Below, one piece after another: positions 10,416-55,747 of a stretch of DNA of 64,000 nt. The stretch is from positions 2,329-66,328 of the IMG/VR virus record IMGVR_UViG_3300029188_000196; one strand, given 5' to 3'. This stretch comes from a virus. A model generated the notes under the pieces. The model saw nothing but the letters and a program-made list of their open reading frames with translations. It was not told the origin of the DNA and did not search any database. Within the stretch, counting starts at the first letter, position 1. Every line of letters begins with the position of its first letter. The translations under genes and the position numbers were made by a program.

Positions 10416-10429
10416 AGTGCTTTCTCCTC

Positions 10430-39595: not shown

Positions 39596-39629
39596 GATCT
39601 TCTGCCCGGAATACCAAGCAGAATGTACA

Positions 39630-42715: not shown

Positions 42716-43099
42716 TTATTCCGGTTTCGTGCCGTCATCCATCCGGATGATACTCATCTGCCCGAACATGCTGACGAATGCTTCCGGCACCCAGAAGCGT
42801 TCCGTATATTTGCGGATGAGGTCTTCCGGCAGCTCTGCGAAATCCTCCTCGCCCAATCCGCAAATGAAGAAGTTTCCCTTGATGGGCTGCTTCAGCTCTG
42901 GGATGTATCTGCTGAACGGCTTCTCAGTGAACAGCCCGTTGTCGTCCGTTACCAATGCGACTGCATCGGCTTCCCACGGGTAGGTTGCCGTAATGCAGTC
43001 GCATTCGAGGATGCGGTAGAATTCATCCAGCGAATCCTCGATGTCGACCACCTGCGGATGCTCCATAGGCTTGATCAGAAGGACTTTCATTCGACCCAC
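42716..43099 (-). CDS. DUF3846-like protein
   Basis: 'MKVLLIKPMEHPQVVDIEDSLDEFYRIL' N-terminus resembles DUF3846, a family common in early/anti-restriction regions of phages and conjugative elements. Family assignment is from memory. Confidence 0.45.
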   Translation of the reverse strand: MGRMKVLLIKPMEHPQVVDIEDSLDEFYRILECDCITATYPWEADAVALVTDDNGLFTEKPFSRYIPELKQPIKGNFFICGLGEEDFAELPEDLIRKYTERFWVPEAFVSMFGQMSIIRMDDGTKPE

Positions 43100-43106
43100 C
43101 CCGCTT

Positions 43107-43556
43107 TCACGATTCCGTATCCATGCATTCTTTCAGCGCACTTTCGAGGATGTGCATCGGGAACTTGAATGTCTTGTAGCCGTCATGCAGAACTTTGTAG
43201 TAATGCAGACTCGGTGCGCGCCGACCGAAGTCGTTTTCCATAATGTAGACCATTGCGGTCACCATCTCCGGCTCTGCGCCCTCACGGAGCAGTTCGATGT
43301 TCAGTTCTTCCTTGCGGTAGTAGGTCGGGTAGCCCTCGTAGGTGTCGAGGTTCTTTTCATCCCTCTCGGAAATCTCCCACACCAGAACCGGGGTGTTCTT
43401 CTTCGGATTCGGTGCAATGGTGGCGCAGCCCCGGAACAAAAGCTCCCAGCCGGCCAGCACCGCCTGTCCTGCGATTCTGGCATCCGGACACCGGTGTGCC
43501 ATCTGCTCCACCGACAGGTTGCTGCCGTAGGCAATGTAGTATTTCTTGTTTTTCAT
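43107..43556 (-). CDS. Gamma-glutamyl cyclotransferase-like (GGCT/AIG2-like) protein
   Basis: 'KYYIAYGSNLSVEQMAHRCPDA...VLAGWELLF' matches the AIG2/GGCT fold signature (YGSN(L/M) motif). 149 aa. Confidence 0.65.
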   Translation of the reverse strand: MKNKKYYIAYGSNLSVEQMAHRCPDARIAGQAVLAGWELLFRGCATIAPNPKKNTPVLVWEISERDEKNLDTYEGYPTYYRKEELNIELLREGAEPEMVTAMVYIMENDFGRRAPSLHYYKVLHDGYKTFKFPMHILESALKECMDTES

Positions 43557-43686
43557 TATTTCTTCGCGCTCCTTTCGTTTTCGCCCTTGTAAGGTGGTAT
43601 GGTATATATGCCTCTGTTCGGCTTAATTATCAAGGTCGATGAGCATCATATACTGCACAATGTTTTCTACCTGTGATCGTGTACTT

Positions 43687-43917
43687 TTACATTGGCGGCA
43701 GTTCACACGCCGTTACTTCGACTCCCTGGAAATCTTCGGTTCCCAGTTCGATTTGGCTGTCCTGCCACCAATCCTCCGCAACACGCTCGGCTTCCTGAAC
43801 GGTCGGCTCTTTCATTTCGGATTCATACACGGTGATGGTTCTCTGGTAGGTTTCGGTAATGGTCACCTTGAACGCTCTGCCATTCGGCTGGTTCTTTGTC
43901 TTGCTGGTATTGTTCAT
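43687..43917 (-). CDS. Hypothetical protein
   Basis: 76-aa ORF downstream of amidoligase-1, preceded by a GGGCGG..CCGCCC hairpin and a GAGGAAGGGAG RBS. Confidence 0.4.
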   Translation of the reverse strand: MNNTSKTKNQPNGRAFKVTITETYQRTITVYESEMKEPTVQEAERVAEDWWQDSQIELGTEDFQGVEVTACELPPM

Positions 43918-43990
43918 AGCTTTCGCTCCCTTCCTCTACCACCTAAAGGGCGGTTGTCCGCCCATAAGGTTCTTTCAGTTTGCGTAAGGC

Positions 43991-44926
43991 TTACCGCCAT
44001 GCGCTGTTCCCTTCCATGTTGTTCAGGTAGTATTCTCTGGCAGTCTTGAATTCGTCACCGATGAAGCCAAGCCTCAGCATCCAGCACCGCATTGCGTACT
44101 TTTCGTTCTCGGTCTGCTGGGGTTTAGGGCTTGCTGTTCTGACCATCTTGGCAAGCTGGTTGATGGCAAGGCAAAGCTGGATGAATGACTTGACCTGTCC
44201 AGCATGCATTCCGTTCTGCTTGCCATCGTGAGGGCAGTCGAATTGAAAAAGCCGAAATTCGATGGTGTGGTGTCCGTGGAAGAAGCTGTGCAGGTTGCAA
44301 ACTCGATATCGTGACGAATTGTAGTGGGTGTACCGATTCCCGTCCGCATTCTGTGTCTGATACCAGAGGTCTTCAAGCTCCTCCATCGTTCTGGGCTTCT
44401 TTCGATTGACCCCTTCCAGAAACTTGGGGTCAACCGTTCGGCAGTAACGGTTCATTCGGTTGCGGTCAATTCGGATTGCTTTTGCCAGCTGGCTTTCATG
44501 GGCCGCCATGATGTTCACGAGGTTTCGGATGGTCTGCGGTGTGTGTCCCTCCCCGCTGATATGAACATGAACTCCCGCCATTCTGGTGTAATCACTTTTC
44601 ATTCCGGCTTTCCGCAGTGCTCTTACAACCCCCTGCAGAAGTTCCATGTCCTCGTAATGAAGAATGGGGCTGACCATTTCACATTTCTGGCTTTCCGGGC
44701 CGGTAATGCTGACATCCTTCTGAAACTTCCACTCCCTGCCCTGCGCATCCCACGCACTCCACGCATCGTAGCCGTTGCGTCCTGCAGTGTATTCGTAGCG
44801 GTCGGTCTCAAAATACCGTGCCGCCGTTCTGGCAGCTTTCTCTCTCGTGATATTGTTACCCTCGATTTCAATACCGAATGTAGGCTTCTTCATGGCTTCA
44901 ATCTGCTCTCTTGTTTTATCATTCAT
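43991..44926 (-). CDS. Amidoligase (GCS2/COG2170-like carboxylate-amine ligase, 'Amidoligase_2')
   Basis: 'KKPTFGIEIEGNN' N-terminal strand and 'GVHVHISGEGH' HxH motif, as in the glutamate-cysteine-ligase-2 / PF12224 family. 311 aa. Preceded by module P7. Confidence 0.7.
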   Translation of the reverse strand: MNDKTREQIEAMKKPTFGIEIEGNNITREKAARTAARYFETDRYEYTAGRNGYDAWSAWDAQGREWKFQKDVSITGPESQKCEMVSPILHYEDMELLQGVVRALRKAGMKSDYTRMAGVHVHISGEGHTPQTIRNLVNIMAAHESQLAKAIRIDRNRMNRYCRTVDPKFLEGVNRKKPRTMEELEDLWYQTQNADGNRYTHYNSSRYRVCNLHSFFHGHHTIEFRLFQFDCPHDGKQNGMHAGQVKSFIQLCLAINQLAKMVRTASPKPQQTENEKYAMRCWMLRLGFIGDEFKTAREYYLNNMEGNSAWR

Positions 44927-44948
44927 GGTATGTTCTCCTTTGGCTTTC

Positions 44949-44997
44949 TTCCCTTTCGGTGTGTGTATATTACCGTCAGGAACGGACTAATTCAAGG
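44949..44997 (-). promoter_or_regulatory. Early promoter-operator module, copy P7 (TTGAAT-17-TAATAT)
   Basis: Conserved module sequence. Confidence 0.55.
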
Positions 44998-45065
44998 CCA
45001 TAAAAGAACATATAGTCGACAAATATACAGTAGAAAAATCGTGTACATTTCTGCGATTTATCCGC

Positions 45066-45094
45066 TTGATAATGTACATTTGAAGAGTTAATAT
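45066..45094 (+). promoter_or_regulatory. Inverted-orientation promoter P10 (TTGATA-17-TAATAT, plus strand), antisense to the amidoligase-2 3' end
   Basis: It shares the CCGCTTGATA -35 context with the early modules. No RBS-preceded ORF lies downstream. Confidence 0.4.
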
Positions 45095-45151
45095 CGGTAC
45101 AATGGAAGAAGGTCTCGCATATTTCCGGCCCCCATTGGGGGGCTTGGGAGC

Positions 45152-46300
45152 TTACGCTCCCGCCTCCAGCATCTGCGCCGTGTCTGCCTCACAGTCGGGC
45201 TGTGTTGGCTCGGCATTTGCCGATGCGACCGTTACCCCAGAGGGGAAACCGCCCTCCTGTGCCGCCTGTTTCGCGGCCTTGAGTGAATCTCGTTTTGCCT
45301 TTTCCCTTGCGAGGAACTTCTGTGCTTCCTCATCCGTGCGGAAAGCCGCATGCCCGGAAAGATTCTCCATGAGGATCTTGCGAGTTGCTTTGAAATCCGA
45401 CCCATTCATGCCCAGACGGATGAGCCATGTGCGGAGCGCATATTTTTCATTTTCATCGTTGACATTCTTAGCCTGAATGCGCTTCTGGCTGATGGCCTGC
45501 TGGTTCATCAGAACGGCAAGCTGTGCGAAAGCTGTCAGGTGTTCGTGGTCCGGTGCAGTCGGGAAGCCAGTGAAAATGACCTTCTCGGTGGTGATTTTCA
45601 AGCCTTCCAATGCCGCGCCATGCTCTGCTTCATAACCATTGACTGCGCTGATGAAGTTCATGGTGGCAAGGGTGCAAGTGTCATCCTTCAGCTTGTCGAC
45701 CAGCCCCTCTTCCACATGAAAGTGGCCGCCCGTTGCTTTCCCGATAAGATTTCCGCGGCTGTAAAGGAGGTTGACCAGATTACGCAGGGTCACACCGTTG
45801 TGCTGACTGACCAGGAAGGAAAGTTCCAAATCCAGAGGAACTTCATCCTGCTGGTCTTCCTCTTCCGTTTGCTCTTCGGTCTCCTGCTCCCCTGTATCCA
45901 ACTCTTCTTCCGGCTCATCCTCTGCTGTGTCGTCCGGCTCCGGTACTTCCGCAGGTTCATTCTGCTCTGCAAAATCATCTGCTTCGGATTCCTGCTCATC
46001 GGGAACTTCCGGTTCTGCTTCAGTCGGCTGTTCCTCTTCCGGTGCCGACTCTGCGTTCTCCGGCTGAACATCCGTGCTCTCGGCGTTGCGAATCAGCCCC
46101 TCGTTCAGCAGGCTCGTCAACAGCTCTGCATCCGCATTCTCCGGTTCGACCAGCAGGTTTCCATCCCGGTCGATGGTATAGTCGCCAATATCATAGGCAT
46201 ACAGAGGTGCTTTGGTGTAGTAAGGGTGGATGCCAGTCAGCTCCTCCATGCGTCTTGCGAGGGTCTTGCGCTCGGCTACATTCAGTTCAAATTTCAACAT
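45152..46300 (-). CDS. Amidoligase paralog with a large acidic insert (possibly divergent/inactive, or a partner/substrate)
   Basis: The C-terminal half aligns with the 43991..44926 protein ('GGHFHVEEG' ~ 'GVHVHISGEGH'; 'ENEKYALRTWLIRLGMNGSDFKATRKILMENLSGHAAFR' ~ 'ENEKYAMRCWMLRLGFIGDEFKTAREYYLNNMEGNSAWR'). An acidic Glu/Pro/Thr-rich insert of about 130 aa lies after the N-terminal domain. Preceded by module P8. Confidence 0.6.
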   Translation of the reverse strand: MLKFELNVAERKTLARRMEELTGIHPYYTKAPLYAYDIGDYTIDRDGNLLVEPENADAELLTSLLNEGLIRNAESTDVQPENAESAPEEEQPTEAEPEVPDEQESEADDFAEQNEPAEVPEPDDTAEDEPEEELDTGEQETEEQTEEEDQQDEVPLDLELSFLVSQHNGVTLRNLVNLLYSRGNLIGKATGGHFHVEEGLVDKLKDDTCTLATMNFISAVNGYEAEHGAALEGLKITTEKVIFTGFPTAPDHEHLTAFAQLAVLMNQQAISQKRIQAKNVNDENEKYALRTWLIRLGMNGSDFKATRKILMENLSGHAAFRTDEEAQKFLAREKAKRDSLKAAKQAAQEGGFPSGVTVASANAEPTQPDCEADTAQMLEAGA

Positions 46301-46522: not shown

Positions 46523-48694
46523 TTATTCTTCCAGTCCTGCGCACCATGCGATGCCTGCCAGAACAAAGTACACACATGGAAGTGCGACACCGTTACCCCA
46601 GAGTTTGTACTCAGCCGCATCCGAATACGGATCTGCCAGCCATTTCCGGATTTGCTTCTCCGTCTTCGGCTTCTTCGCATGGGTCACGATCTTACGGTGT
46701 GTTTCAAACACATCTGCCCAGAATGCCAACTCTTCCTCGGTTGGATTTTCCGTTCCAAGGTCTCTGCACCACCAATCCGGGAATCCTTGAAGTCTGGCAC
46801 ACTCGGTCGGTGTCAGGCGGCGGACGGTGTAGGTCACAGGTGTGGACTGTGCTTCCGGGTTGTCGATGACAAGACGGTCATTGAAAGCGTCCTGCCCATT
46901 GAAGCCGCTGGGATGTGCCCCGCTCGCCACGGTACCAGCCACACCCTCGTTCAGATGCGGTGCCGGTGCAATGGTGGTCGGGTCTTTGTAATCCCGTGCC
47001 ATCAGAGTCGGAGATACATTCTCCTCTACTCGCATAAAGGAGCCAGTGGTCATGGCATACACATCTTCCGGTGCGCAGACTGCATGACGGTCAGTGGCGT
47101 CCAGCGTAAAGCAGACATCCTCATTGACCCCATCTCCCTGTGGACCATTCTCGTCCTTGCGGCCGATCATGTTACCCTGCAGGACGAAGGTCTGCATCTG
47201 GTCGCTTCGGGTCGCCATGAGTGCGCCAGACTTTCCATGCAGGTCAATCAGCTCATTGCGCTGATTCACATGGAAAGCAGTCACATCTTCCGGCTGTACC
47301 ACAAAGGTCTGCTGTTTCATTCCCGGCTCTGCTGCCAGTGCCGCTGACTTGTCCCCCAGATCCCGGACTTCATCTCTCTGGTTCTGGGTAAAAGCAACAG
47401 GCTCTACCACACAGATGCCGCCCTGATTGCAAGTCGGAGCACCGCCGCTGCGGTCCAGTGTCCGGGAAGTTTCCGCTTCATAGAAACCGCTATGCGGATT
47501 GTCGGACATCATGGAATGGCTGGCTTTCGAGCAGACACCATAGCATTTCGGGACGAACAGTGTCTGGTCGTTGTTACAGCCAAGGGTGGCCGATTTTTCT
47601 TCCTGCCAGATGACTCCCTTGCCGCCGCCCTCACACCCGGAACGGATCTTCAGCGTGACTGCCGGAGAATTATCTGCACCATCCATGACCAGCGGAACAT
47701 TGCCACCGCCCGTACCGCATCGGCTGGTCAGCGTTTGAACCTTGCCATCTTCGGAAATCTTCACCCTGCTGTCTGCCGGATGATTTTCCAATGCAATGGC
47801 GGCAGGTACGACACCTGCCCGGAGGGTCGGTGACCGTTCTTCCTCATATCCGATGCTTCTGGCATTTGCGGAATGCTCAGTACAGAAACCAGCAGCTTCA
47901 AGAATCTCTCCCGGCTTGTTCAGGCCGATTCTTCCTGCACAGCTTGCCGTTCCAATGCCGCTTTCAGAACTGGCGGCAGCTCTTTGCCACGCACGGAAGC
48001 TCTCCGGAGAATACCGAGACAGGCCTTCGGACTTAAATAGTACTTTTCCGGCACTTTGACCTGCAAAGTCTGCGACAAGGAACAGACGTTTTCTTCGTTG
48101 AGCCAAGCCGAAGTGTTGAGCATCGAGAGTTCTGTATGCCACGCTCCATCCGTCTCCCAGAATAATATCGGCGGTTGCCCACTTTCCCTTTTCAGGCATA
48201 GGCAGCGGTGGCGCTTCTGGCTCTTTGACTGCGATGATTTCTTCAAGGACCGACTTAAAGTCCTCACCGGATTTGCTGGAGAACAGTCCGGGAACGTTCT
48301 CGACGACAAAATATCGTGGGTTTTCTCCATCGGTTGCTTCCCTCATTTCTTTAATAATCCTGACCGCCTCATAAAACAGACCACTTCGGGTTGTCTTTTC
48401 TCCGCCGTGGTCGATATGCTGAACGCCCTCTCTTTTTCCAGCCACAGAAACGGACTGGCAAGGGAAACCACCTGTGATGATATCTACAGGAGGGAGTTCC
48501 GCTCCACGAAGACTGGAAATATCTCCGTAGTGGATTACCTGCGGCAGTCGTTTTGTAGTCACACGAATTGGGAATGGTTCAACTTCACAGTTCCAGACCG
48601 GCTGGATTCCTGCAAGCAGCCCTCCCAATTCAAAACCCCCGGAACCTGCAAAGAGGCTGCCGAGGGTCAAGGTCTTATTCTGTTCTGTACTCAT
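46523..48694 (-). CDS. DNA (cytosine-5)-methyltransferase, large (723 aa; probably multispecific phage-type)
   Basis: Motif I 'LFAGSGG', motif IV 'GFPCQSVSVAG', motif VI 'FVVENVPGL'. A long variable region suggests several target-recognition domains. Confidence 0.85.
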   Translation of the reverse strand: MSTEQNKTLTLGSLFAGSGGFELGGLLAGIQPVWNCEVEPFPIRVTTKRLPQVIHYGDISSLRGAELPPVDIITGGFPCQSVSVAGKREGVQHIDHGGEKTTRSGLFYEAVRIIKEMREATDGENPRYFVVENVPGLFSSKSGEDFKSVLEEIIAVKEPEAPPLPMPEKGKWATADIILGDGWSVAYRTLDAQHFGLAQRRKRLFLVADFAGQSAGKVLFKSEGLSRYSPESFRAWQRAAASSESGIGTASCAGRIGLNKPGEILEAAGFCTEHSANARSIGYEEERSPTLRAGVVPAAIALENHPADSRVKISEDGKVQTLTSRCGTGGGNVPLVMDGADNSPAVTLKIRSGCEGGGKGVIWQEEKSATLGCNNDQTLFVPKCYGVCSKASHSMMSDNPHSGFYEAETSRTLDRSGGAPTCNQGGICVVEPVAFTQNQRDEVRDLGDKSAALAAEPGMKQQTFVVQPEDVTAFHVNQRNELIDLHGKSGALMATRSDQMQTFVLQGNMIGRKDENGPQGDGVNEDVCFTLDATDRHAVCAPEDVYAMTTGSFMRVEENVSPTLMARDYKDPTTIAPAPHLNEGVAGTVASGAHPSGFNGQDAFNDRLVIDNPEAQSTPVTYTVRRLTPTECARLQGFPDWWCRDLGTENPTEEELAFWADVFETHRKIVTHAKKPKTEKQIRKWLADPYSDAAEYKLWGNGVALPCVYFVLAGIAWCAGLEE

Positions 48695-49464
48695 TCGGCA
48701 ACCTCCTCTCCGAGCATCTGCTCATTGGCTTTCTGGTAAAAATCTCTGGATACCTCAAATCCATAGCTGTTGCGGCCAAGCTCCCGTGCGGCACGAAGGG
48801 TCGAACCGCTGCCAGCACATGGGTCAATAACCACATCGCCGGGGTCAGTGAAAGTTTCGATCAGGCGTTTCAGCACAGAGATTGGTTTCTGAGAGGGATG
48901 AATTTTCGGATATTCCTTACTATCCCGTTTCCAGTCAAACCAGTTGAAGATCATGTGGGGCTTGCCGTCCTCACCGAGATTGCGGAACTTGGGGAGCTTG
49001 CCCCGGTACAGCACCAGCGCATACTCCGTTGCACCCACAATCTTCATGTTGGCTTTGAGTACCTGTGGACTGTAGTTCTTACAGAACACCAGTGGGATAT
49101 AATTCTTGAAGCCGTATTTTTCCGCTTCGGTGATCACCTTCGGGATCTGCTGGAACGCACAGAACACAATCATGCATGGCGCGTCCTTTTCACCCGTGCC
49201 GGGTTCTTTCTTCAGCAGGCGGTTGCAGAAATGGAAATATTCTGCAATGTTGAAAGTGAAGTCGGTATTGAATGCCGCTTTCCTCGCCTTGCTGCTCTCC
49301 CCGTTTTTGTTGTCGCCATCCACATACCAGTCCGGCCGACTGGCGTAGAAGTCCGTACCGATGTTGTACGGAATGTCTGCGATCACCAGCTGTGCCTTGG
49401 GGATGTTGTAGGACTTGAAGTTCTGGAAGTTGTCATGGATGAGGACACATTTTACATCAGGCAT
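48691..49464 (-). CDS. DNA N6-adenine/N4-cytosine methyltransferase (beta-class)
   Basis: 'VIADIPYNIG' DPPY motif and 'HPSQKPISVLKRLIETFTDPGDVVIDPCAGSGST' AdoMet motif. The likely start is the internal ATG at about 49464. Confidence 0.8.
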   Translation of the reverse strand: MPDVKCVLIHDNFQNFKSYNIPKAQLVIADIPYNIGTDFYASRPDWYVDGDNKNGESSKARKAAFNTDFTFNIAEYFHFCNRLLKKEPGTGEKDAPCMIVFCAFQQIPKVITEAEKYGFKNYIPLVFCKNYSPQVLKANMKIVGATEYALVLYRGKLPKFRNLGEDGKPHMIFNWFDWKRDSKEYPKIHPSQKPISVLKRLIETFTDPGDVVIDPCAGSGSTLRAARELGRNSYGFEVSRDFYQKANEQMLGEEVAE

Positions 49465-50737
49465 CGGCATCCACACTTTCCGGCTCAAAGGTCGCCACTT
49501 CCTCAAACTTCAGCTTCTGACTGTCACGGATAACATACACATCATCGTAGTGACCCTCCCGGAACTGAATGTAGCGTTTGACTGCAACATCCACGAACTT
49601 CGGTTCCACCTCCACACCATAACAGATACGATCGATCTGTTCACAGGCAATCAGGGTCGATGCGCTGCCGAGGAAGCCGTCCAGAACAATGCCGTTGGTC
49701 ATGGTGGACTGCTTGATCAGATAGGCAATCAGTGGAACAGGCTTGCTGGAGGGGTGGCCGAAACCATCCTCTTTGGAGTTCTTGATGCCCTCAAATTCAA
49801 ACACATTGGTCTGCTTCTGATCGCCGTACCAGCGATGACGGCCGTCCTTACGCCAGCCAAAGATGATAGGCTCGGAGTTGAACTTCCAGTCGGTACGCAT
49901 AAAAGGCGCACGAGGCTTCTTCCAAATCAGGCCGGCTCCCACCTTGAAGCCCGCATCCTCGAAAGCATCGTAAAACACACGGGCTTTCATCGTGGCGTAG
50001 AATTCATAGATGGAAGCGTCCATCGCCATCGCATTTTTGAAGTTGGCGTAGACCTTCATCAAAAACTCGTAGGCGGACTTGTCATCCAGATCATCATTCT
50101 TGATACTGCCGGAAGCATTCTCCAGCTTGACGAAGTAAGGTGCATCGGTACAGACCAGATTAACCTTGGTATCGCCCAGCAGATTTTTATAAACCTCCGG
50201 GTCCGTGGAATCTCCGCAGATGGCTGTGTGTTTACCAAGGTGCCAGATATCTCCGGCCTTGGAAAAACACGGCTGTTTCAGTTCAGATTCCACATCGAAA
50301 TCATCATCTTTCACATCCTTGTCGTGGACACTAGTAAAGAGTTCACTGATTTCCGGTGGCTCAAAACCTGTCTTTCCGAGGTCGAAGTTTGAATCTTCGA
50401 GGTCTTTCAGCAGATCAGCCAGCAGGGAATCATCCCATGCACCCGTAATCTTGTTGAGTGCGATGTTCAGGGCTTTCTCCCTGGTCTTGTCGATGTCCAC
50501 CACCGCGCAAGGCACTTCGGTGTAGCCCAGCTCCATCGCTACGGTCAGTCTCTGGTGACCACCGATGATCGTCATATCGGCATTGACCACCAAAGGATCT
50601 GCGAAGCCGAACTCCGTGATGGAGTTCTTGATCTTCTCGTACTCTTTGTCCCCCGGCTTCAGCTTCTTCCGGGGATTGTATGCGGCCGGCTTGAGTACGG
50701 ACACCGGCAGCATCTTCAATTCAGCAGTCGCTTTCAT
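49457..50737 (-). CDS. ParB-like nuclease domain fused to DNA methyltransferase (N6/N4 family)
   Basis: N-terminal ParB/Srx motif 'IIGGHQRLTVAMELG'. C-terminal 'HPSSKPVPLIAYLI...DGFLGSASTLIACEQ' MTase motifs. Confidence 0.8.
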   Translation of the reverse strand: MKATAELKMLPVSVLKPAAYNPRKKLKPGDKEYEKIKNSITEFGFADPLVVNADMTIIGGHQRLTVAMELGYTEVPCAVVDIDKTREKALNIALNKITGAWDDSLLADLLKDLEDSNFDLGKTGFEPPEISELFTSVHDKDVKDDDFDVESELKQPCFSKAGDIWHLGKHTAICGDSTDPEVYKNLLGDTKVNLVCTDAPYFVKLENASGSIKNDDLDDKSAYEFLMKVYANFKNAMAMDASIYEFYATMKARVFYDAFEDAGFKVGAGLIWKKPRAPFMRTDWKFNSEPIIFGWRKDGRHRWYGDQKQTNVFEFEGIKNSKEDGFGHPSSKPVPLIAYLIKQSTMTNGIVLDGFLGSASTLIACEQIDRICYGVEVEPKFVDVAVKRYIQFREGHYDDVYVIRDSQKLKFEEVATFEPESVDADA

Positions 50738-50758
50738 GTAGATCCTCCCACTTTAGAT

Positions 50759-50977
50759 TCACACGCGCATGACCCCAGAGAACGGCACGAAAAAGGAGCC
50801 GAATAAAAAGCCCGACTCCATCTCATCGCCATTTTCCCGCGGCTGTTCGGTCATCTCGCACCATTCCGGGTTTTCTCCGTTCACGGATGCCAGCACCTTA
50901 TCTTCCGCATCGTCAATCGCATGTACACAGATCCCCCCGGTGTTGAACATCGGGAACACACCGACAATCTTACTCAT
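50759..50977 (-). CDS. Hypothetical protein
   Basis: 72-aa ORF. Confidence 0.35.
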   Translation of the reverse strand: MSKIVGVFPMFNTGGICVHAIDDAEDKVLASVNGENPEWCEMTEQPRENGDEMESGFLFGSFFVPFSGVMRV

Positions 50978-51470
50978 CCTGCTTTGCCCCCTTTAACCCA
51001 TATCGAAATTCAAAATAGCATTCCCGGCTGCAAAATCTTCTCTGTCCGTTACATTCGTGGACGGCCTTAAACTCTCTTCCACAGTTCTGGCAGATTGCAT
51101 TTCGGCCGGTCGCCAGACTTTTGTAGTGTTTTCGCTCGTACTCGTCTTTGCATTCCTTTGAGCAAAAGCGCCGAACACCACCGACTTTCTGCAACACCGG
51201 TTTTCCACACACCGGACAGAACTTCCCTTTCGTCATGTTCGGAGGGATCAGGTGACAATTCCCGACTTCCGGCAGCCCAAGTTCTCTGCAATAGTCGATG
51301 ACCTGTTCTATCGGAAGGCCTGTTTTCTCTGCGATTTCCACGCACTCCACGCCTGCCAGCCGCTGATTCCGCACTTCTTCACGCTCTGCGGAATAGGCCA
51401 TGCCTTCTATCAGGCAGTCCAGACGAACTCCATGCTTTACCACATCACGCTGTATTGTCAAAGGTTCCAT
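50970..51470 (-). CDS. Sigma-70 region-4-like HTH + double zinc-ribbon protein (putative transcription regulator)
   Basis: 'REEVRNQRLAGVECVEIAEKTGLPIEQVI' region-4-like HTH, followed by two CxxCG...RRFCSxEC modules. AAGGAG RBS 8 nt before the ATG at 51470. Confidence 0.55.
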   Translation of the reverse strand: MEPLTIQRDVVKHGVRLDCLIEGMAYSAEREEVRNQRLAGVECVEIAEKTGLPIEQVIDYCRELGLPEVGNCHLIPPNMTKGKFCPVCGKPVLQKVGGVRRFCSKECKDEYERKHYKSLATGRNAICQNCGREFKAVHECNGQRRFCSRECYFEFRYGLKGAKQDE

Positions 51471-51753
51471 CCGATGCACTCCTTCCTCGATTCGCACAGG
51501 CGCGGCTGCAATATTTCCGTTCTAGTCCATACTGTTGTCGGTAGGAAAATTCCCTGCCGCACACCGGGCAGATCTTCGACCGCACGGTCTTCCAGTTCTC
51601 CAGTTTCGGATGAGTGTTGTTCCACCGTGACCGGCATTCCGGTGAACAGAACTTCCGTGGTCTGCCTTTATGGTTTGGTACGATTGCCGTACCGCACTGA
51701 GGACAGAACGAAAACGCCATGTCCTTGATCATCTCAGCCGTGAAATCTTCCAT
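51445..51753 (-). CDS. Double zinc-ribbon protein, paralog of the C-terminal half of 50970..51470
   Basis: 'FCPQCGTAIVPNHKGRPRKFCSPECRSRW' and 'ICPVCGREFSYRQQYGLERKYCSRACANRG' repeat the same module found in the neighbouring gene. Confidence 0.5.
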   Translation of the reverse strand: MEDFTAEMIKDMAFSFCPQCGTAIVPNHKGRPRKFCSPECRSRWNNTHPKLENWKTVRSKICPVCGREFSYRQQYGLERKYCSRACANRGRSASDGTFDNTA

Positions 51754-52155
51754 CTGCCCTCACCCCACTCTCATTTTTCGCCGTTTCTTCGGCGGTTTCT
51801 TGGAAAAGTTTCATAATTCATATGAAAAGCGGCGAAGTGGAAATCGGCACCGCCCCGCCAGGTCGGATTGTTGTTGCGGCGGCCGATTCGCACTCGCCCC
51901 TGCTCCTCCCGGAACAAGCTAAAATGTGCGAAAGCTCCCTGTTTACGAGAGTTTTCACACACTTTGGTTCATTTCGGGGAAAAAGGAAGGCACCTGAACC
52001 GAAGCTCCGATGCCTGTGCATTTTCCTGTTTCATTTTGCGCCGTTAATCCTCTGACCCCCGGCCTACTAATTTTGCGATTTTTCACACGAAAGCCATCGC
52101 CGGTCTCCGTGTGACTTCACCATAGAGAAGTGACCCCGGCCCCCGGTGGGCCCTG
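51754..52155. other. 400-bp GC-rich noncoding region with multiple hairpins (function unknown)
   Basis: No RBS-supported ORF. Contains GGCCC-ACCG-GGGCC and GTGAC...GTGAC elements. Lies between the HNH gene and the zinc-ribbon genes. Confidence 0.4.
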
Positions 52156-52515
52156 TCAGTAGGTGTAGGTCGGGTTGATGTCCTCGGTCAGTGTCTTGCG
52201 GTCATGACACTCTTTGCAGAGAGCCTGCCAGTTGCTCCGATCCCAGAACAATTTCTGGTCACCACGGTGTGGTTTGATGTGATCCACCACCGTTGCCCGG
52301 ACGTACTTTCCTCGCTTGGCACACTCCACACACAGCGGATGAGCTTCGAGATACGATTTTCTCGCTTTCTGCCACCGCCTGTTATAACCTCGCCTGGCGG
52401 CGGGTCTTGTTGCTTCCGGATGGAGAGGCAGATGCTTCTCACAGTAGAGCCGGCCGGCTTCCACCAGTTCTGGGCAACCGGGATGGTGGCACGGTGTCTT
52501 TGGTCTGTACGGCAT
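52156..52515 (-). CDS. HNH endonuclease
   Basis: 'VDHIKPHRGDQKLFWDRSNWQALCKECHDRKT' HNH motif with CxxC pairs. Confidence 0.85.
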   Translation of the reverse strand: MPYRPKTPCHHPGCPELVEAGRLYCEKHLPLHPEATRPAARRGYNRRWQKARKSYLEAHPLCVECAKRGKYVRATVVDHIKPHRGDQKLFWDRSNWQALCKECHDRKTLTEDINPTYTY

Positions 52516-52518
52516 GGG

Positions 52519-53586
52519 TCAGTCCTCCCACGGAAGACCAGCCTTGCCGAAGTGACCGTAGGCACTGACCTTGTTGTAGTCCACGTCCAGCAATCCCAGC
52601 CGCTTGATGATACCCTGCGGAGTCAGGTCGTAGCTGTCTTTGACATAAGCCTGAATGAACTCCAAGTCCTCACGCTCCGTGCCGAAGCACTCGACCGACA
52701 CACCCACCGGCTGAACCACACCAATGGCGTAGGCCAGCTGGACTTCGCACTTGTCAGCGTAGCCAGCCTGCACAATGTTCTTGGCAATCTTCCGTGCCAT
52801 GTATGCTGCGGAGCGGTCCACCTTGGTGGGGTCTTTACCGCTCAGAGCACCACCGCCCATGCGACCGATGCCGCCATAGGTGTCACACGCCAACTTCCGG
52901 CCGGTCACACCGCAGTCTGCGTAGCTACCACCCAGCACGAAACGGCCGGTCGGATTCACAAGCTTCGTGAAGTCACCGTTCAGACCATACTCGCAGGCGG
53001 CCAGCACCATCATAGATTCGATGATGTGGCGGAAGTCGCTGACCTCCACATCCGGGCTATGCTGCACGGAGCAGAGAAATGTGGTAATGCGACCAGTGTC
53101 GTAATCATAGCTGACCTGTGCCTTGGCATCTGCACGGAACATCTTAGTTGGATGATTCTTCAGCAGTTGCAGGAACTTGGTTGCTACCATGTATGGAATC
53201 GGCATCTGCTCTGCCGTTTCGTTTGTAGCGTAACCGTACATGATTCCCTGGTCACCGGCACCACCCTTATCCACGCCGAGTGCGATGTCCGGCGACTGTT
53301 TGTCCACCAAAACGCCGATGCGAATTCGGTCGCTAAAGTCGAAGCCCATCTTCTCCGCACCAATGTGAGTAATCACATTGTGTACGAGCTGATGGTAGTT
53401 CGGCTGATAGTCAGTCGTCATCTCGCCAGCAATAAAGAGCTGGTTCTTCTTCAGCAGGCATTCGATTGCGACACGCGCATTCTTGTCGTGCTTCAGAACA
53501 TCCGTCACGATGGCGTCTGCAATCTGGTCACAGATTTTATCGGGATGGCCGTTGCTGACCTGTTCACAGGTAATGATCTTGCTCAT
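52519..53586 (-). CDS. metK: S-adenosylmethionine synthetase (MetK), phage-encoded
   Basis: 'SEQVSNGHPDKICDQIADAI' N-terminal signature and 'GGGALSGKDPTKVDRSAAYMAR' C-terminal signature. Start at 53586 with a GGAGGG RBS. Confidence 0.85.
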   Translation of the reverse strand: MSKIITCEQVSNGHPDKICDQIADAIVTDVLKHDKNARVAIECLLKKNQLFIAGEMTTDYQPNYHQLVHNVITHIGAEKMGFDFSDRIRIGVLVDKQSPDIALGVDKGGAGDQGIMYGYATNETAEQMPIPYMVATKFLQLLKNHPTKMFRADAKAQVSYDYDTGRITTFLCSVQHSPDVEVSDFRHIIESMMVLAACEYGLNGDFTKLVNPTGRFVLGGSYADCGVTGRKLACDTYGGIGRMGGGALSGKDPTKVDRSAAYMARKIAKNIVQAGYADKCEVQLAYAIGVVQPVGVSVECFGTEREDLEFIQAYVKDSYDLTPQGIIKRLGLLDVDYNKVSAYGHFGKAGLPWED

Positions 53587-53983
53587 GGTTCTTGCCCTCC
53601 ATCTCTTTCCAGCCATTTTCTTTATTGCCACAGTTCTTACAAGTGTAGTAAAGCGTGGAATTGTCGCACTCCTCCATGTGAGGTTGAAGGCGTTTCCCGC
53701 ACTTGGGACAGTGTCGAATCGGGACGACCGTAGCTCTCAAATCGAAGCCACTCCAATTGGACAACTCATACGGATAAACTACGCGCTTACCCTCTTCCTC
53801 CGCTTCTGCCAGACAATAGCAGTTCGGTGTGTCTACACAATCACGCATCACGACATTGTCCTCGTCATCGGTATCCACACACATAACCGTCATGCCATCG
53901 GGCAAAGGAATGAGCCGCATCAGCTGGATGTCCTCATATCCGTCTGTATCTGTTCCCAAGAAGTCCTGATTACCGTTTTTCAT
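53564..53983 (-). CDS. Hypothetical acidic protein with C-terminal zinc ribbon
   Basis: 'CPKCGKRL...CKNCGNK' CxxC pairs. The ATG at 53983 is the likely start. Confidence 0.4.
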   Translation of the reverse strand: MKNGNQDFLGTDTDGYEDIQLMRLIPLPDGMTVMCVDTDDEDNVVMRDCVDTPNCYCLAEAEEEGKRVVYPYELSNWSGFDLRATVVPIRHCPKCGKRLQPHMEECDNSTLYYTCKNCGNKENGWKEMEGKNHEQDHYL

Positions 53984-54374
53984 TGTATATGTCCTCCAGA
54001 CCAAGTTGTACTTTTACCGCCGTTTCGATATCTGCGACCATTTTTGCATCCTCGCAGGCACACAGCTTTCGCCGCAGCCTCCACTTTGGAATGGCGGTGA
54101 TCTGTTCTGCCAACACCACAGAGTCCTCATCCAGCAGGTCACTGATGATGCAATGGGTCGGCATATACATCTTCTTTATCTGGCTCGTCATCGGAAGTAC
54201 CGTCACAACATCCGAGCATCGATTCGCCACATCATTGCTGATAACCAGCACAGGACGGTCACCTTCCTGCACGGAAGTACCGGTGTTCTCTCTCAGGTGT
54301 GCGTACCAGATATCCATCCTTTTGGGAGGCTGGATATTCGTCACCGAAGGCAGCGGTTTTCTGTAGATTCGCAT
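53970..54374 (-). CDS. MazF/PemK-family toxin (mRNA interferase-like)
   Basis: 'DIWYAHLRENTGTSVQEGDRPVLVISNDVANRCSDVVTVLPMTSQIKK' matches the PemK/MazF core (RPxxVxS...P.TS). The start is uncertain (54374 or 54317). Confidence 0.7.
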   Translation of the reverse strand: MRIYRKPLPSVTNIQPPKRMDIWYAHLRENTGTSVQEGDRPVLVISNDVANRCSDVVTVLPMTSQIKKMYMPTHCIISDLLDEDSVVLAEQITAIPKWRLRRKLCACEDAKMVADIETAVKVQLGLEDIYNEKR

Positions 54375-54378
54375 CGGC

Positions 54379-54696
54379 TTATTCTTCCTGCTCATCTCTC
54401 GCCCTTTCTGCGGATTCTTTCCACGGCATCTTACCACCGTAGTATCTCTCCGCATAGGCTTTCTGCTCATATGCAGGAAGGCGGTTCATGCGCTCATCAT
54501 GCTTACGGATAGACTCTTCATGCTGTTCTCTGGTCTTTCGGAACGGGCACGGAGTCTCCGGAGTGTGAGAACATACAGGGTTTGCAAGTGCCCTGCAAAG
54601 ATGGAGATTTCCAACAAAGGCACATCCTTTACTGTTCTCCTCGCTGACTGCCTTCTGCTTTGCGGTCAGCTTGCGTTCTGCTTGACGAAAATCCAT
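54379..54696 (-). CDS. Cys/His-rich hypothetical protein translationally coupled to the MazF-like gene (candidate non-canonical antitoxin)
   Basis: 106 aa from 'MDFRQAERKLTAKQ'. Contains C..C..C..H..C.C. Its stop lies 2-5 nt from the MazF-like start. No AbrB or RHH similarity. Confidence 0.4.
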   Translation of the reverse strand: MDFRQAERKLTAKQKAVSEENSKGCAFVGNLHLCRALANPVCSHTPETPCPFRKTREQHEESIRKHDERMNRLPAYEQKAYAERYYGGKMPWKESAERARDEQEE

Positions 54697-54849
54697 AATC
54701 AAATCATCCTTTCCGGGGTTTCCCCACATCGTTTATGTATAAAAAGATGCCATGTGGCTTCATAGAACCGCACAGCACCCTTTTATCACCAAAAGCAGTC
54801 ACCCAGCGGAGCAAGTCAGCACCAGGCAACCGCAGCAAAAGTAAACAGG

Positions 54850-55090: not shown

Positions 55091-55747
55091 TCACCCCAGC
55101 ATGATGCGGAGCTTATTGTTTTCCCGTTCTTCAAGAACCCCAGCCATATAAACGATGGCTTTGTCCTTGATTCGGCTGATTGTAGTATGTGACCGGACAT
55201 GGAGAGCATCTGCGATGGCATCCCAGCCCTGGTCTTCGATCCAGAGCATTCTTGCCACGAGCGATGTTTTCTCATCCATGCCGGATATCGTAGTACTGAT
55301 GAAATCAACTACGCTTTTCTTTTCGAGATACCGACTTTCAAGCATCAAGAGCTGTTCTTTGTAATACGCCGGCTCATCATTCAACTCTGCCATCAGCCTG
55401 TCGTACTCTTTTTCATAGTTGAGAGCGATTCGTGCTGTCGGGTCAGAGATGTTACTGCTCTTCACTCGCTCACAGTCGGTACTGACTCCGGGGTGGCACA
55501 TCATTTCGATGACTTCTGTTTTCGACAACGACCGGTGCGGAAGACTACCCTTTTCGCCCCTTGCCTTCAAGTCCTCCAACTGATGCTTTGCCGTGCGCAT
55601 CTCAAACTCCACCTTGCGATAGTTTTCCAGAAGCGTTCTGGCAGCAGCTACAAAATAGCTGTTACAGGCTGCGCGTGTTTCATCGCTCAATTCAAGGGTG
55701 ATCATTTCGCCATTTGCAGTTTCAAACTCCATCTGATTTCTTGACAT
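55091..55747 (-). CDS. Sigma-70 family (ECF-like) sigma factor
   Basis: C-terminal region 4 'TSLVARMLWIEDQGWDAIADALHVRSHTTISRIKDKA'. GGGGAGG RBS 8 nt upstream. Confidence 0.7.
   Translation of the reverse strand: MSRNQMEFETANGEMITLELSDETRAACNSYFVAAARTLLENYRKVEFEMRTAKHQLEDLKARGEKGSLPHRSLSKTEVIEMMCHPGVSTDCERVKSSNISDPTARIALNYEKEYDRLMAELNDEPAYYKEQLLMLESRYLEKKSVVDFISTTISGMDEKTSLVARMLWIEDQGWDAIADALHVRSHTTISRIKDKAIVYMAGVLEERENNKLRIMLG

What the first reader, a model, noticed from the sequence alone, without database searches (positions are those of the whole stretch)
46523..53586. Epigenetic/anti-restriction suite: three orphan DNA MTases (multispecific C5, N6/N4, ParB-fused) plus a phage-encoded MetK
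Three methyltransferase genes have no cognate restriction enzyme. The phage also carries its own SAM synthetase 2 kb upstream. A phage-borne MetK is uncommon. It would secure the methyl donor for self-protective methylation during replication. It could also perturb host SAM-dependent defence (BREX or type I/III R-M).
Basis: partly seen in the sequence, partly recalled or inferred. Interest (0 to 1): 0.6.

Follow-up and report, generated by a model that had tools for sequence, protein, structure and literature searches.

The report
Gut phage DNA-methylation module with MetK
A human-gut prophage carries three stand-alone DNA methylases, one apparently built to recognise many different sites, next to its own enzyme for making the methyl donor SAM; the genes are real and look functional, but this combination is a published, very common feature of this phage group, so it is ordinary.

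Summary
On the minus strand lie an intact compact SAM synthetase (52519-53586), an HNH gene, two Zn-ribbon genes, and three overlapping, probably co-translated, DNA methyltransferase genes. These are a ParB_N-fused amino-MTase (49457-50737), a stand-alone amino-MTase (48691-49506) and a 723-aa C5-MTase (46523-48694). No restriction endonuclease was found in the prophage, in about 10 kb beyond its right edge in near-identical relatives, or in a complete related genome.

The C5 enzyme has a 420-aa variable region with nine tandem TL-motif modules. These share motifs with the recognition domains of the Bacillus phage SPbeta-type enzyme, and they come and go as whole units among homologues. "Multispecific" is therefore plausible but unproven.

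The rarity claim fails. The window is collinear with Ca. Heliusvirales phages. There the C5-MTase (67% of genomes) and SAM synthetase (58.9%) are the commonest published auxiliary genes. The same gene order recurs in 62 of 62 IMG/VR relatives and in Streptococcus prophages.

MetK-to-MTase coupling is supported by gene neighbourhood. Sister phages carry a 260-aa "mini-MetK" overlapping the ParB-MTase gene, and a Mycoplasmopsis phage has MetK overlapping an MTase gene. No known mechanism supports perturbing BREX or type I systems by making SAM. Verdict: a new member of a known kind, of modest interest.

The parts
52519..53586 (-). Compact S-adenosylmethionine synthetase (MetK, 355 aa)
   Evidence: All three Pfam MetK domains score above threshold. 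It matches phrog_1569 at 3e-136 and E. coli MetK structures at 1e-96 over the full length. Identity to E. coli MetK is 47.6%, with 16 of 16 checked active-site residues conserved. Gene callers on public contigs call it as 355 aa.
52156..52515 (-). HNH endonuclease (119 aa), phage packaging-associated type
   Evidence: PF01844 at 6.5e-10 and phrog_144 at 1.2e-36. It follows MetK with a median gap of 7 nt in 62 of 62 IMG/VR relatives. It has no PADLOC hit. It is not a candidate cognate restriction enzyme.
52016..52155 (.). Conserved non-coding element at the start of the 400-nt HNH-to-Zn-ribbon spacer; candidate DNA site (cos or late promoter)
   Evidence: The spacer is about 90% conserved in close relatives. 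Its first ~125 nt are conserved down to relatives with 72-75% MetK identity. There is no Rfam match. RNAalifold gives a weak structure with an unfavourable covariation term.
51445..51753 (-). Zn-ribbon protein (102 aa)
   Evidence: phrog_2308 at 1.9e-17, plus weak Pfam zinc-ribbon hits. Its position is conserved in relatives, including Streptococcus phage Javan55.
50970..51497 (-). Zn-ribbon protein (175 aa), paralogue of the previous one
   Evidence: phrog_2308 at 1.6e-21. Its position is conserved.
50759..50977 (-). Conserved 72-aa ORF of unknown function, directly upstream of the ParB-MTase gene
   Evidence: No family hit. It is conserved at 60-95% identity in relatives. Sister phages carry a mini-MetK in this slot.
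49457..50737 (-). ParB_N-fused beta-class amino-MTase (426 aa)
   Evidence: PF02195 plus PF01555 and phrog_498 at 2e-151. Motif IV (DAPY, residue 198) precedes motif I (FLGSAST, residue 355). DAPY aligns to the DPPY of the adenine MTase in PDB 5hek. A ParB box II-like GGHQR lies at residue 59.
48691..49506 (-). Stand-alone beta-class amino-MTase (271 aa from TTG; probable ATG start at 49470 or 49464)
   Evidence: PF01555 at 2.5e-25 and phrog_67 at 3.3e-48. Motif IV is DIPY at residue 44 and motif I is CAGSGST at residue 230. The gene is a present/absent cassette: 42 of 62 relatives have it.
46523..48694 (-). Orphan C5-cytosine MTase (723 aa)
   Evidence: PF00145 at 9.9e-41. PADLOC orphan-MTase model PDLC03715 (719 positions) matches at 2e-244. 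Motifs I (15), IV PCQ (78), VI ENV (132), VIII QRRKR (199), IX (625) and X GNG (700) are all present.
46823..48085 (-). Variable region of the C5-MTase (residues ~204-624) holding nine tandem TL/AL-motif recognition-domain-like modules
   Evidence: The TL or AL dipeptides lie at residues 290, 321, 347, 370, 412, 452, 491, 530 and 563, with recurring flanks. Homologues differ by whole-module insertions and deletions; their variable regions span 392-531 aa. The motifs match the recognition domains of the SPbeta/phi3T-type MtbP enzyme.
53564..54729 (-). Upstream genes of the same operon: a 116-aa protein (54379-54729), a MazF/PemK-like toxin (53970-54470) and a 146-aa Zn-binding protein (53564-54004)
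   Evidence: PF02452 at 5.7e-22 for the toxin. The ORFs overlap one another and the MetK start. A toxin-antitoxin pair next to metK is also reported in GBS prophage 12/111phiA.
55091..55747 (-). Putative transcription regulator (218 aa) upstream of the module
   Evidence: phrog_36 'transcriptional regulator' at 5.4e-14. In sister phages the gene at this position carries DUF722/DUF1492/Sigma70_r4. A promoter-like site at 54964-54936 and a hairpin plus T-run at 54882-54865 lie just downstream on the minus strand.

Best explanation
This is the DNA-modification module of a temperate siphovirus of the Ca. Heliusvirales type, integrated in a gut Clostridia genome. The closest cultured carrier among the genome hits is Clostridium fessum. 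The module sits between the replication genes and the packaging genes, and all its genes face the same way.

Shown by sequence:
- It encodes an apparently active, compact SAM synthetase.
- About 1.8 kb downstream it encodes three overlapping DNA MTase genes: a ParB-fused amino-MTase, a stand-alone amino-MTase, and a C5-MTase with nine tandem recognition-domain-like modules.
- There is no partner restriction enzyme.

Inferred:
- The genes are expressed during lytic growth, downstream of a late-regulator-like gene.
- The MTases methylate newly replicated phage DNA at many different motifs. The virions then leave already protected against the varied restriction-modification systems of the next hosts. 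This is the strategy known from Bacillus phages with multispecific C5-MTases.
- MetK raises SAM synthesis in the infected cell, so that the methyl donor does not limit this heavy, stoichiometric methylation.
For: Gene identity and integrity.

Orphan status: no REase in the window, none beyond its right edge, and none annotated in the complete relative NatCom_42228.

Operon structure: overlapping ORFs on one strand.

Lineage: the window is collinear with NatCom_42228, with TerL 76%, PolA 61%, MetK 61% and ParB-MTase 54% identity.

MetK-to-MTase coupling:
- MetK, HNH and the ParB-MTase are present in order in 62 of 62 IMG/VR relatives; 60 of 62 also have the C5-MTase.
- The same order occurs in Streptococcus phage Javan55.
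- Sister Heliusvirales phages instead carry a 260-286-aa MetK-family gene whose stop overlaps the ParB-MTase start.
- An unrelated Mycoplasmopsis phage has MetK overlapping a DNA MTase gene.

Multispecific architecture.

Precedent: temperate Bacillus phages array several recognition domains in one enzyme and express it on induction (PMC12707154; PMC8936443).
Against: - There are no methylome, expression or enzyme data for this phage or its close relatives.
- MetK is dispensable for the MTase pair in at least one relative. NatCom_28274 has no MetK-family gene within the 9 kb held on either side of its C5 gene. Another Heliusvirales genome keeps MetK in the early region, away from any annotated MTase.
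- Compact MetKs of the same clade also sit in ordinary chromosomal contexts in Oribacterium parvum and a Clostridia MAG.
- In a Streptococcus agalactiae lysogen, the prophage metK changes host aggregation and biofilm formation. A role in the lysogen is therefore possible (PMC8223999).
- The phage still avoids many palindromes, so methylation is not its only protection.
- The number of active recognition domains is unknown. Spacings of 23-31 aa between some TL motifs are shorter than I recall for classical recognition domains.
Confidence: 0.6

Rival explanations
1. MetK is mainly a general metabolic or lysogenic-conversion gene. It raises SAM for host physiology (cell surface, biofilm, quorum signalling) or for polyamine synthesis used in DNA packaging. 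Its position near the MTases reflects shared ancestry of the module, not a shared task.
For: - In S. agalactiae prophage 12/111phiA, deleting or re-adding metK changes aggregation, chain length and glycocalyx of the lysogen (PMC8223999).
- Compact MetKs of the same clade occur in non-phage chromosomal contexts.
- One Heliusvirales genome has MetK far from any MTase, and one has the MTases without MetK.
- Virome papers treat K00789 as a generic auxiliary metabolic gene.
Against: - In the window, MetK is embedded in an overlapping same-strand operon between the replication and packaging genes. It is not a stand-alone moron with its own promoter and terminator.
- Two non-orthologous MetK-family genes occupy two different slots of the same module in sister phages. 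The short form overlaps the ParB-MTase gene.
- An unrelated Mycoplasmopsis phage repeats the MetK-MTase overlap.
Confidence: 0.22
2. The MTases serve the phage's own biology rather than restriction evasion. They would mark DNA for packaging, replication timing or the lysis-lysogeny decision, as Dam methylation does at the P1 pac site. The ParB domain would target one enzyme to particular DNA.
For: - Orphan phage MTases with regulatory roles are known, for example the methylation requirement at the P1 pac site (PMC12707154).
- The module lies next to the HNH gene, and in sister phages next to a small-terminase-like gene.
- ParB-fold fusions to N6_N4 MTases are enriched in prophages, and their function is unknown (bioRxiv 10.1101/2025.10.10.680097).
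Against: - A single regulatory mark does not need three MTases.
- It also does not need nine recognition-domain-like modules that are gained, lost and recombined among near-identical phages. Examples are MTase genes at 69-73% identity beside a 100% identical MetK, and an amino-MTase cassette present in only 42 of 62 relatives. That turnover fits an arms race with host restriction systems.
Confidence: 0.13
3. MetK is an active counter-defence. By changing the SAM pool it disturbs SAM-dependent host defences (BREX, type I/III restriction-modification), or restores SAM after depletion by the host or a competing phage.
For: SAM is a required cofactor of type I systems and BREX, and phages are known to manipulate the SAM pool (PMC12707154; bioRxiv 10.1101/2023.02.27.530186).
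Against: - The documented manipulation goes the other way. T3 SAMase cleaves SAM and blocks host MetK, and that is what disables BREX. More SAM would be expected to support these defences, not hinder them.
- I found no report of a SAM-depleting defence system.
- Nothing in the window points to this role.
Confidence: 0.05

Closest known systems
Ca. Heliusvirales gut phages (de Jonge et al. 2024, PMC11283538), e.g. Clostridium phage NatCom_42228
   Same: The gene order is the same from the primase/helicase genes through MetK, HNH, ParB-MTase, long C5-MTase, amidoligase and GGCT to the terminase and structural genes. Identities are TerL 76%, PolA 61%, MetK 61%, HNH 68% and ParB-MTase 54%. The paper lists the C5-MTase (67%) and SAM synthetase (58.9%) as the commonest auxiliary genes.
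   Different: The window has an extra stand-alone amino-MTase and a 723-aa C5 gene (640 aa in NatCom_42228). The paper treats the two genes as separate auxiliary metabolic genes. In the passages I searched it does not discuss their linkage or the recognition-domain array. MetK of NatCom_42228 is deposited as 'peptidase'.
Multispecific C5-MTases of temperate Bacillus phages (SPR, phi3T, SPbeta MtbP, rho11s, H2)
   Same: - It is an orphan, phage-borne C5-MTase.
- The conserved catalytic motifs flank an enlarged variable region with recognition domains in tandem.
- The motif patterns are shared with an MtbP-type enzyme: 'YSPEGLSPTLTTMGGG' and 'EPAFTVNTIDRHGV' against the window's 'YEEERSPTLRAG', 'VQTLTSRCGTGGG' and 'EDVCFTLDATDRHAV'.
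   Different: - The variable region is 420 aa with nine TL/AL modules, against 186 aa in the 443-aa MtbP-type enzyme.
- There is no detectable similarity outside the short motifs.
- No target sequence is known.
- Bacillus phages did not appear among the 37 records sharing this variable region.
Streptococcus 'Javan'-type prophages and GBS prophage 12/111phiA (metK studied experimentally, PMC8223999)
   Same: MetK is of the same compact type (347 aa, 58% identical). It is followed by HNH, Zn-ribbon genes, a ParB-type adenine MTase, a C5-MTase and the terminase (TerL 75% identical). A toxin-antitoxin pair lies next to metK in both.
   Different: The Streptococcus C5-MTase is of ordinary size (about 417 aa in Javan55). 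The experimental work addressed lysogen phenotypes (aggregation, biofilm), not phage DNA methylation.
ParB-CTPase-fold fusions to N6_N4 MTases in prophages (bioRxiv 10.1101/2025.10.10.680097)
   Same: The domain architecture, ParB_N followed by N6_N4_Mtase, is the same. The preprint reports this fusion as enriched in phages and prophages.
   Different: Nucleotide binding and target specificity of this member are untested. Motifs IV and I are the variants DAPY and FLGSAST.
T3 SAM lyase (SAMase), the known phage manipulation of the SAM pool
   Same: A phage enzyme acts on the host SAM pool in the context of restriction and BREX.
   Different: The direction is opposite. T3 destroys SAM and inhibits host MetK to disable SAM-dependent defence. 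This phage makes SAM, most plausibly to feed its own MTases.

Membership tests
S-adenosylmethionine synthetase (MetK/MAT) | Three-domain architecture (PF00438, PF02772, PF02773), each above Pfam's threshold | tested here: met
   Scores are 95.8, 87.8 and 190.1 bits against cut-offs of 33.1, 29 and 25. It aligns full length to E. coli MetK at 1e-96.
S-adenosylmethionine synthetase (MetK/MAT) | Active-site residues for ATP/triphosphate, metal ions and methionine (E. coli H14, D16, K17, E42, E55, Q98, D118, D163, K165, F230, D238, R244, K245, K265, K269, D271) | tested here: met
   All 16 are identical in the pairwise alignment. The residue list and the E. coli sequence come from my own knowledge. 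The sequence agrees with the PDB alignment printed.
S-adenosylmethionine synthetase (MetK/MAT) | Catalysis of SAM formation from ATP and methionine | not testable with these tools
   This needs an enzyme assay or complementation. At 355 aa the protein is shorter than any solved MAT returned (377-430 aa).
Multispecific C5-cytosine MTase (Bacillus phage type) | Canonical C5-MTase motifs I-X in order, with catalytic PCQ, ENV and QRR | tested here: met
   Motif positions are 15, 78, 132, 199, 625 and 700. PF00145 matches at 9.9e-41 in three stretches.
Multispecific C5-cytosine MTase (Bacillus phage type) | Enlarged variable region between motifs VIII and IX carrying several recognition domains in tandem | tested here: met
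   The variable region is 420 aa with nine TL/AL modules. The MtbP-type enzyme has 186 aa. Homologues span 392-531 aa with 7-11 modules by a loose regular expression.
Multispecific C5-cytosine MTase (Bacillus phage type) | Modules behave as independent units (gain, loss, transfer) | tested here: met
   Whole-module insertions and deletions occur among 10 aligned homologues. A 41-aa stretch covering modules 3-4 recurs at 61% identity in the roughly 470-aa C5-MTase of Faecalibacterium phage FP_Toutatis.
Multispecific C5-cytosine MTase (Bacillus phage type) | Methylation of more than one unrelated target sequence by one polypeptide | not testable with these tools
   There are no methylome data. 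No module matched a recognition domain of a solved MTase. The AlphaFold model was unusable, with pLDDT 31.8.
Orphan (solitary) DNA MTase | No restriction endonuclease gene adjacent or in the same element | tested here: met
   No REase family appears in the window's ORFs. None lies in the ~10 kb beyond the right edge of relatives. None is annotated in the NatCom_42228 genome. The best PADLOC hit of the C5 enzyme is an 'orphan methyltransferase' model. Several small ORFs remain unassigned.
Type II restriction-modification system | MTase paired with a cognate endonuclease | tested here: not met
   The only nucleases near the MTases are the packaging-type HNH (phrog_144, no PADLOC hit) and a VRR-NUC-like replication endonuclease (phrog_93). 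Both are conserved in relatives whatever their MTase content.
Beta-class amino-MTases (N6-adenine or N4-cytosine), both smaller MTases | Motif IV (D/S/N-P-P-Y/F) placed N-terminal to motif I (FxGxG) | tested here: met
   DIPY at residue 44 precedes CAGSGST at 230. DAPY at 198 precedes FLGSAST at 355. DAPY aligns with the DPPY of the adenine MTase in PDB 5hek. The middle proline is replaced in both. Sequence does not tell whether the target base is adenine or cytosine.
ParB_N-MTase fusion | N-terminal ParB/Srx-fold domain fused to an N6_N4 MTase domain | tested here: met
   PF02195 covers residues 6-89 and PF01555 covers residues 192-386. phrog_498 matches at 2e-151. Nucleotide binding by the ParB domain was not tested.
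Ca. Heliusvirales | TerL homology and shared marker genes with designated members | tested here: met
   TerL is 76% identical over 527 aa to NatCom_42228. Portal (55%), major capsid protein (41%), SNF2 helicase (56%), primase (48%) and PolA (61%) are collinear. The authors' formal criterion (TerL HMM score and tree placement) was not run.

The most novel reading that the evidence does not exclude
The C5 enzyme may be a 'hyper-multispecific' MTase. Its nine recognition domains (7-11 across the family) would act as a recombining cassette array, well beyond the few targets I recall for the Bacillus phage enzymes. It would protect virions against a broad panel of gut restriction systems.

The MetK-family gene would then be a co-evolved supply component of this methylation machinery, not a generic metabolic gene. 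Sister phages have reduced it to a 260-aa minimal MetK that overlaps the ParB-MTase gene, which could hint at a physical or kinetic partnership.
Probability: 0.35. Interest if true: 0.6.

Novelty: new member of a known kind. Interest (0 to 1): 0.3.

Why it matters
If the explanation holds, one of the most prevalent human-gut phage lineages pre-methylates its DNA at many motifs and brings its own SAM supply to do so. That would help explain how these phages move among hosts with different restriction systems.

It also bears on host assignment from methylation patterns in metagenomes. The phage DNA would carry marks that the host does not have.

The long C5-MTases could be a source of new m5C specificities for biotechnology. 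The compact and minimal MetK forms could be of interest as small SAM synthetases.

None of this changes the verdict on the finding. The gene combination is already in the literature for this lineage. The untested part is the mechanism.

Tried and rejected
- **AlphaFold2 of the C5-MTase.** I used 51 homologues, but the model had mean pLDDT 31.8. I did not use it, and ran no fold search.
- **AlphaFold2 of the sister-phage mini-MetK.** Mean pLDDT was 51.7, with only the N-terminal domain confident. I did not use it.
- **Assigning specificities to the modules.** I searched the variable region against solved structures. Only motif IX matched.
- **SAM riboswitch or other RNA upstream of MetK or in the 400-nt spacer.** There were no Rfam hits at the gathering threshold or at E<=1. 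RNAalifold on 10 spacer sequences gave weak folding with an unfavourable covariation term.
- **HNH as a hidden restriction partner.** Rejected. It is the small packaging-type HNH, conserved next to MetK whatever the MTase content.
- **PD-(D/E)XK-containing ORF at 5883-7514.** Rejected as a partner. It lies about 40 kb away, in a separate low-GC segment beyond the phage recombinases.
- **Helicobacter 'phage MetK' records as independent phage acquisitions.** Rejected. They are host flanking genes (metK, ndk, plsX, fabH).
- **"The compact MetK clade is phage-only."** Rejected. Two members sit in ordinary chromosomal contexts.
- **Palindrome statistics to guess protected motifs.** Suggestive only.
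- **The classic Trautner papers and Murphy et al. 2013.** These are not held in the library.

Full report
**What is in the window**

All credible genes in the window lie on the minus strand. Reading in the direction of transcription, the order is as follows.
- Replication genes: family A DNA polymerase, DUF932, VapE-type primase, a VRR-NUC-like endonuclease and an SNF2 helicase.
- A putative transcription regulator (55091-55747, phrog_36).
- A small protein plus a MazF-like toxin, then a Zn-binding protein.
- MetK (52519-53586) and an HNH endonuclease (52156-52515).
- A 400-nt spacer, then two Zn-ribbon paralogues and a 72-aa ORF.
- The three MTase genes (46523-50737).
- An amidoligase-related acidic protein, an Amidoligase_2 protein, a gamma-glutamyl cyclotransferase, DUF3846 and an Nmad4 protein.
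- Small and large terminase, portal, ClpP-type protease, capsid, tail genes, holin and lysins.
- Two large serine recombinases.

This is a prophage. Left of about 8 kb the GC content drops to 0.40-0.44, and a third recombinase suggests a different element there.

**Checking the observation**

MetK:
- All three Pfam domains score far above threshold.
- It aligns end to end with E. coli MetK structures at E=1e-96.
- It keeps all 16 active-site residues I checked.
- At 355 aa it is shorter than E. coli MetK (384 aa), through loop deletions and a missing C-terminal tail.

The two smaller MTases:
- Both are beta-class amino-MTases, with motif IV ahead of motif I. The motif IV variants are DIPY and DAPY.
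- In the ParB-fused enzyme, DAPY aligns with the DPPY of a solved adenine MTase.
- The solved relatives of the stand-alone enzyme include both adenine-N6 and cytosine-N4 MTases. Sequence alone does not settle whether the target base is adenine or cytosine.

The C5 enzyme has all the canonical catalytic motifs.

The three MTase ORFs overlap each other, and the MetK stop lies a few nucleotides from the HNH start. These genes are therefore expressed as operons, not as isolated insertions.

**Orphan status**

I assigned families to the ORFs of at least 110 aa that I scanned and found no restriction endonuclease.
- The HNH is the small packaging-associated type (phrog_144). It follows MetK at a median of 7 nt in 62 of 62 relatives.
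- In public contigs carrying the identical DUF932 protein, the 10 kb beyond the window's right edge holds the polymerase, an ssDNA-binding protein, a DUF2800/PDDEXK_1 recombination exonuclease and the cro/cI-type switch. It holds no restriction enzyme.
- The complete genome of the relative NatCom_42228 has none annotated.
- The best PADLOC match of the C5 enzyme is an 'orphan methyltransferase' model of 719 positions, at E=2e-244. The family is therefore already catalogued as orphan.

**Is the C5 enzyme multispecific?**

Between motifs VIII and IX lie 420 aa. The experimentally founded multispecific class, represented here by an SPbeta/phi3T-type MtbP enzyme of 443 aa, has 186 aa there.

The region contains nine copies of a pattern: a hydrophobic residue, x, a hydrophobic residue, x, an acidic residue, xx, S, x, then T/A-L. 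The dipeptides lie at residues 290, 321, 347, 370, 412, 452, 491, 530 and 563. Two neighbouring modules are plainly duplicates of each other.

The MtbP-type enzyme shows the same motif patterns. It has 'YSPEGLSPTLTTMGGG' and 'EPAFTVNTIDRHGV', against the window's 'YEEERSPTLRAG', 'VQTLTSRCGTGGG' and 'EDVCFTLDATDRHAV'.

Among homologues of 679-825 aa, the differences are insertions or deletions of whole modules of about 30-45 aa. Their variable regions span 392-531 aa. A stretch covering modules 3-4 recurs in the roughly 470-aa C5-MTase of an unrelated Faecalibacterium phage.

This architecture fits a multispecific enzyme. That Bacillus phages array several recognition domains in one polypeptide is stated in PMC8936443 and PMC12707154. 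The conserved Thr-Leu dipeptide of C5-MTase variable regions is from my own knowledge.

How many modules are active, and on which sequences, cannot be told here. No module matched a solved recognition domain, and the structure prediction failed.

**How common is it?**

Across all deposited phages, MetK is rare: 139 of 50,697 records, some of which are host flanks. In this lineage it is normal.
- The window is 99% identical to an unannotated human faecal phage contig.
- It is collinear with Clostridium phage NatCom_42228 of Ca. Heliusvirales, with TerL 76% identical.
- The paper defining that order reports the C5-MTase in 67% and SAM synthetase in 58.9% of genomes, as the commonest auxiliary genes (PMC11283538).
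- A digester virome study ranks K00789 as the single most abundant viral auxiliary gene in two feedstock types (PMC13644194).
- MetK has its own PHROG family. About 90 Streptococcus prophage records annotate it.
- In Javan55 the order MetK, HNH, Zn-ribbon genes, ParB-type MTase, C5-MTase, terminase is the same, with TerL 75% identical.
- The homology searches with the long C5-MTase and with the sister phages' mini-MetK both saturated at 8,000 hits. The window's DUF932 protein is indexed in 1,976 blocks of the assembly collection.
- The ParB-MTase fusion is also a described, prophage-enriched architecture.

**Is MetK tied to the MTases?**

Within the close lineage the order is fixed. Of 62 IMG/VR relatives with enough downstream sequence, 62 have the HNH and the ParB-MTase, 60 have the C5-MTase, and 42 have the extra amino-MTase. 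This could reflect shared ancestry alone.

Three further observations argue for a functional tie.
- The MTase genes turn over quickly beside a stable MetK. One relative has a 100% identical MetK but MTases only 69-73% identical. The N-terminal half of the window's C5 enzyme is 65-70% identical to relatives whose variable region is 89-93% identical.
- Sister Heliusvirales phages lack the full MetK upstream of the HNH gene. Instead they carry a 260-286-aa MetK-family protein in the slot directly upstream of the ParB-MTase, with the stop overlapping the MTase start.
  - It scores above Pfam's threshold for the MetK N-terminal domain.
  - It keeps 13 of the 16 active-site residues, plus two conservative changes.
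  - It is very abundant, and one source names it SAM synthetase.
- An unrelated Mycoplasmopsis phage has MetK overlapping a DNA MTase gene.

Three observations count against an obligatory tie.
- NatCom_28274 has the MTase pair with no MetK-family gene in the 9 kb held on either side of the C5 gene.
- Another Heliusvirales genome keeps a 400-aa MetK in the early region.
- Compact MetKs of the same clade sit among housekeeping genes in Oribacterium parvum and among glycosyltransferases in a Clostridia MAG.

**Most likely mechanism**

I infer that the module is expressed during lytic growth. It lies on the late side of a regulator gene. In sister phages, the gene at that position carries DUF1492/Sigma70_r4.

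The three MTases would methylate progeny DNA at many motifs before packaging. MetK would keep SAM from becoming limiting. The steps shown are gene integrity, operon layout, orphan status and conserved neighbourhood. The steps inferred are timing, targets, the protective effect and the need for extra SAM.

In that case, destroying SAM is what disables the defence.

A role of MetK in the lysogen, as seen in Streptococcus agalactiae, remains a live rival.

**Verdict**

The combination is a known feature of a very common phage order, so the window adds another member.

Two parts could repay experiments. One is the unusually long recognition-domain array. The other is the MetK-family genes, full length here and minimal in sister phages, attached to the MTase operon.

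Noticed in passing
L173:5527-6354, L174:6289-7149, L176:6361-7143, L179:5001-5783 (sister Heliusvirales phages; not in the window): A 260-286-aa 'mini-MetK' sits directly upstream of the ParB-MTase, with its stop overlapping the MTase start. It scores above Pfam's threshold for the MetK N-terminal domain. It keeps 13 of 16 active-site residues plus two conservative changes, despite losing about 100 residues. The homology search saturated at 8,000 hits. AlphaFold gave only a partial model (pLDDT 51.7)..
   Followed up: partly
window 27492-28889 (-) and 29606-30439 (-): An ATPase_2 + DUF234 protein matches the PADLOC candidate defence family PDC-S27 at 3.7e-56. It sits between the tape-measure gene and the tail-tube gene, next to an SPFH/Band_7 protein. 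It looks like a defence cargo gene inside the tail module.
   Followed up: no
window 52016-52155: The first ~125 nt after the HNH gene are conserved down to distant relatives. They have no Rfam match and little covariation. In sister phages a small-terminase-like gene follows the HNH gene. The element may therefore be the cos site or a late promoter.
   Followed up: partly
window 42716-46300 (-): A conserved block lies downstream of the MTases: an acidic 382-aa amidoligase-related protein (phrog_2443), an Amidoligase_2 protein, a gamma-glutamyl cyclotransferase and DUF3846. It is present in most relatives. Its function is unknown.
   Followed up: no
window 39211-39633 (-): A protein with the Nmad4 domain ('nucleotide modification associated domain 4', PF18756, 8.6e-20) lies just upstream of the small terminase gene. 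It may hint at further nucleic-acid modification functions.
   Followed up: no
window 46523-48694 (-): The C5-MTase is mosaic. Its N-terminal catalytic half is 65-70% identical to relatives whose variable region is 89-93% identical. The N-terminal half is 55% identical to a Streptococcus phage Javan108 enzyme.
   Followed up: partly
window 12801-64000: The phage still avoids many palindromes. Observed/expected ratios are ACGT 0.26, CTAG 0.32, CGCG 0.43 and GGCC 0.50. CCCGGG, TTCGAA, CTCGAG and GGATCC are absent. CCGG (0.94), GCGC (0.87), AGCT (0.99) and TCGA (1.04) are not avoided, so these could be methylation-protected sites. There was no host control.
   Followed up: partly
window 53970-54729 (-): A 116-aa protein overlaps a MazF/PemK-like toxin, forming a probable toxin-antitoxin pair directly upstream of MetK. 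The GBS prophage 12/111phiA has relB-yafQ-endonuclease-metK at the corresponding place.
   Followed up: no
window 1-12661: There are three large serine recombinases (10430-12661, 9099-10433, 1800-3644). The segment left of ~8 kb has lower GC and carries an AAA_25 protein and an AAA-ATPase_like + PDDEXK_9 protein. This probably marks the prophage end abutting a second integrated element.
   Followed up: no
L090:9998-11056 (Oribacterium parvum), L094:10001-11071 (Clostridia MAG): Compact MetKs (352-356 aa, 54-59% identical to the phage enzyme) sit in non-phage contexts: TrkH/TrkA, TIM and PGK in one, glycosyltransferases in the other. The compact clade is therefore shared between some Clostridia chromosomes and phages, and the direction of transfer is unknown.
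   Followed up: partly
L002/L083 (PV036444.1 29804-30853); L085 (PQ159905.1): Two database annotation problems. The MetK of Clostridium phage NatCom_42228 is deposited as 'peptidase'. The 'S-adenosylmethionine synthetase' fragments in a Helicobacter phage record are host flanking genes (metK, ndk, plsX, fabH).
   Followed up: yes
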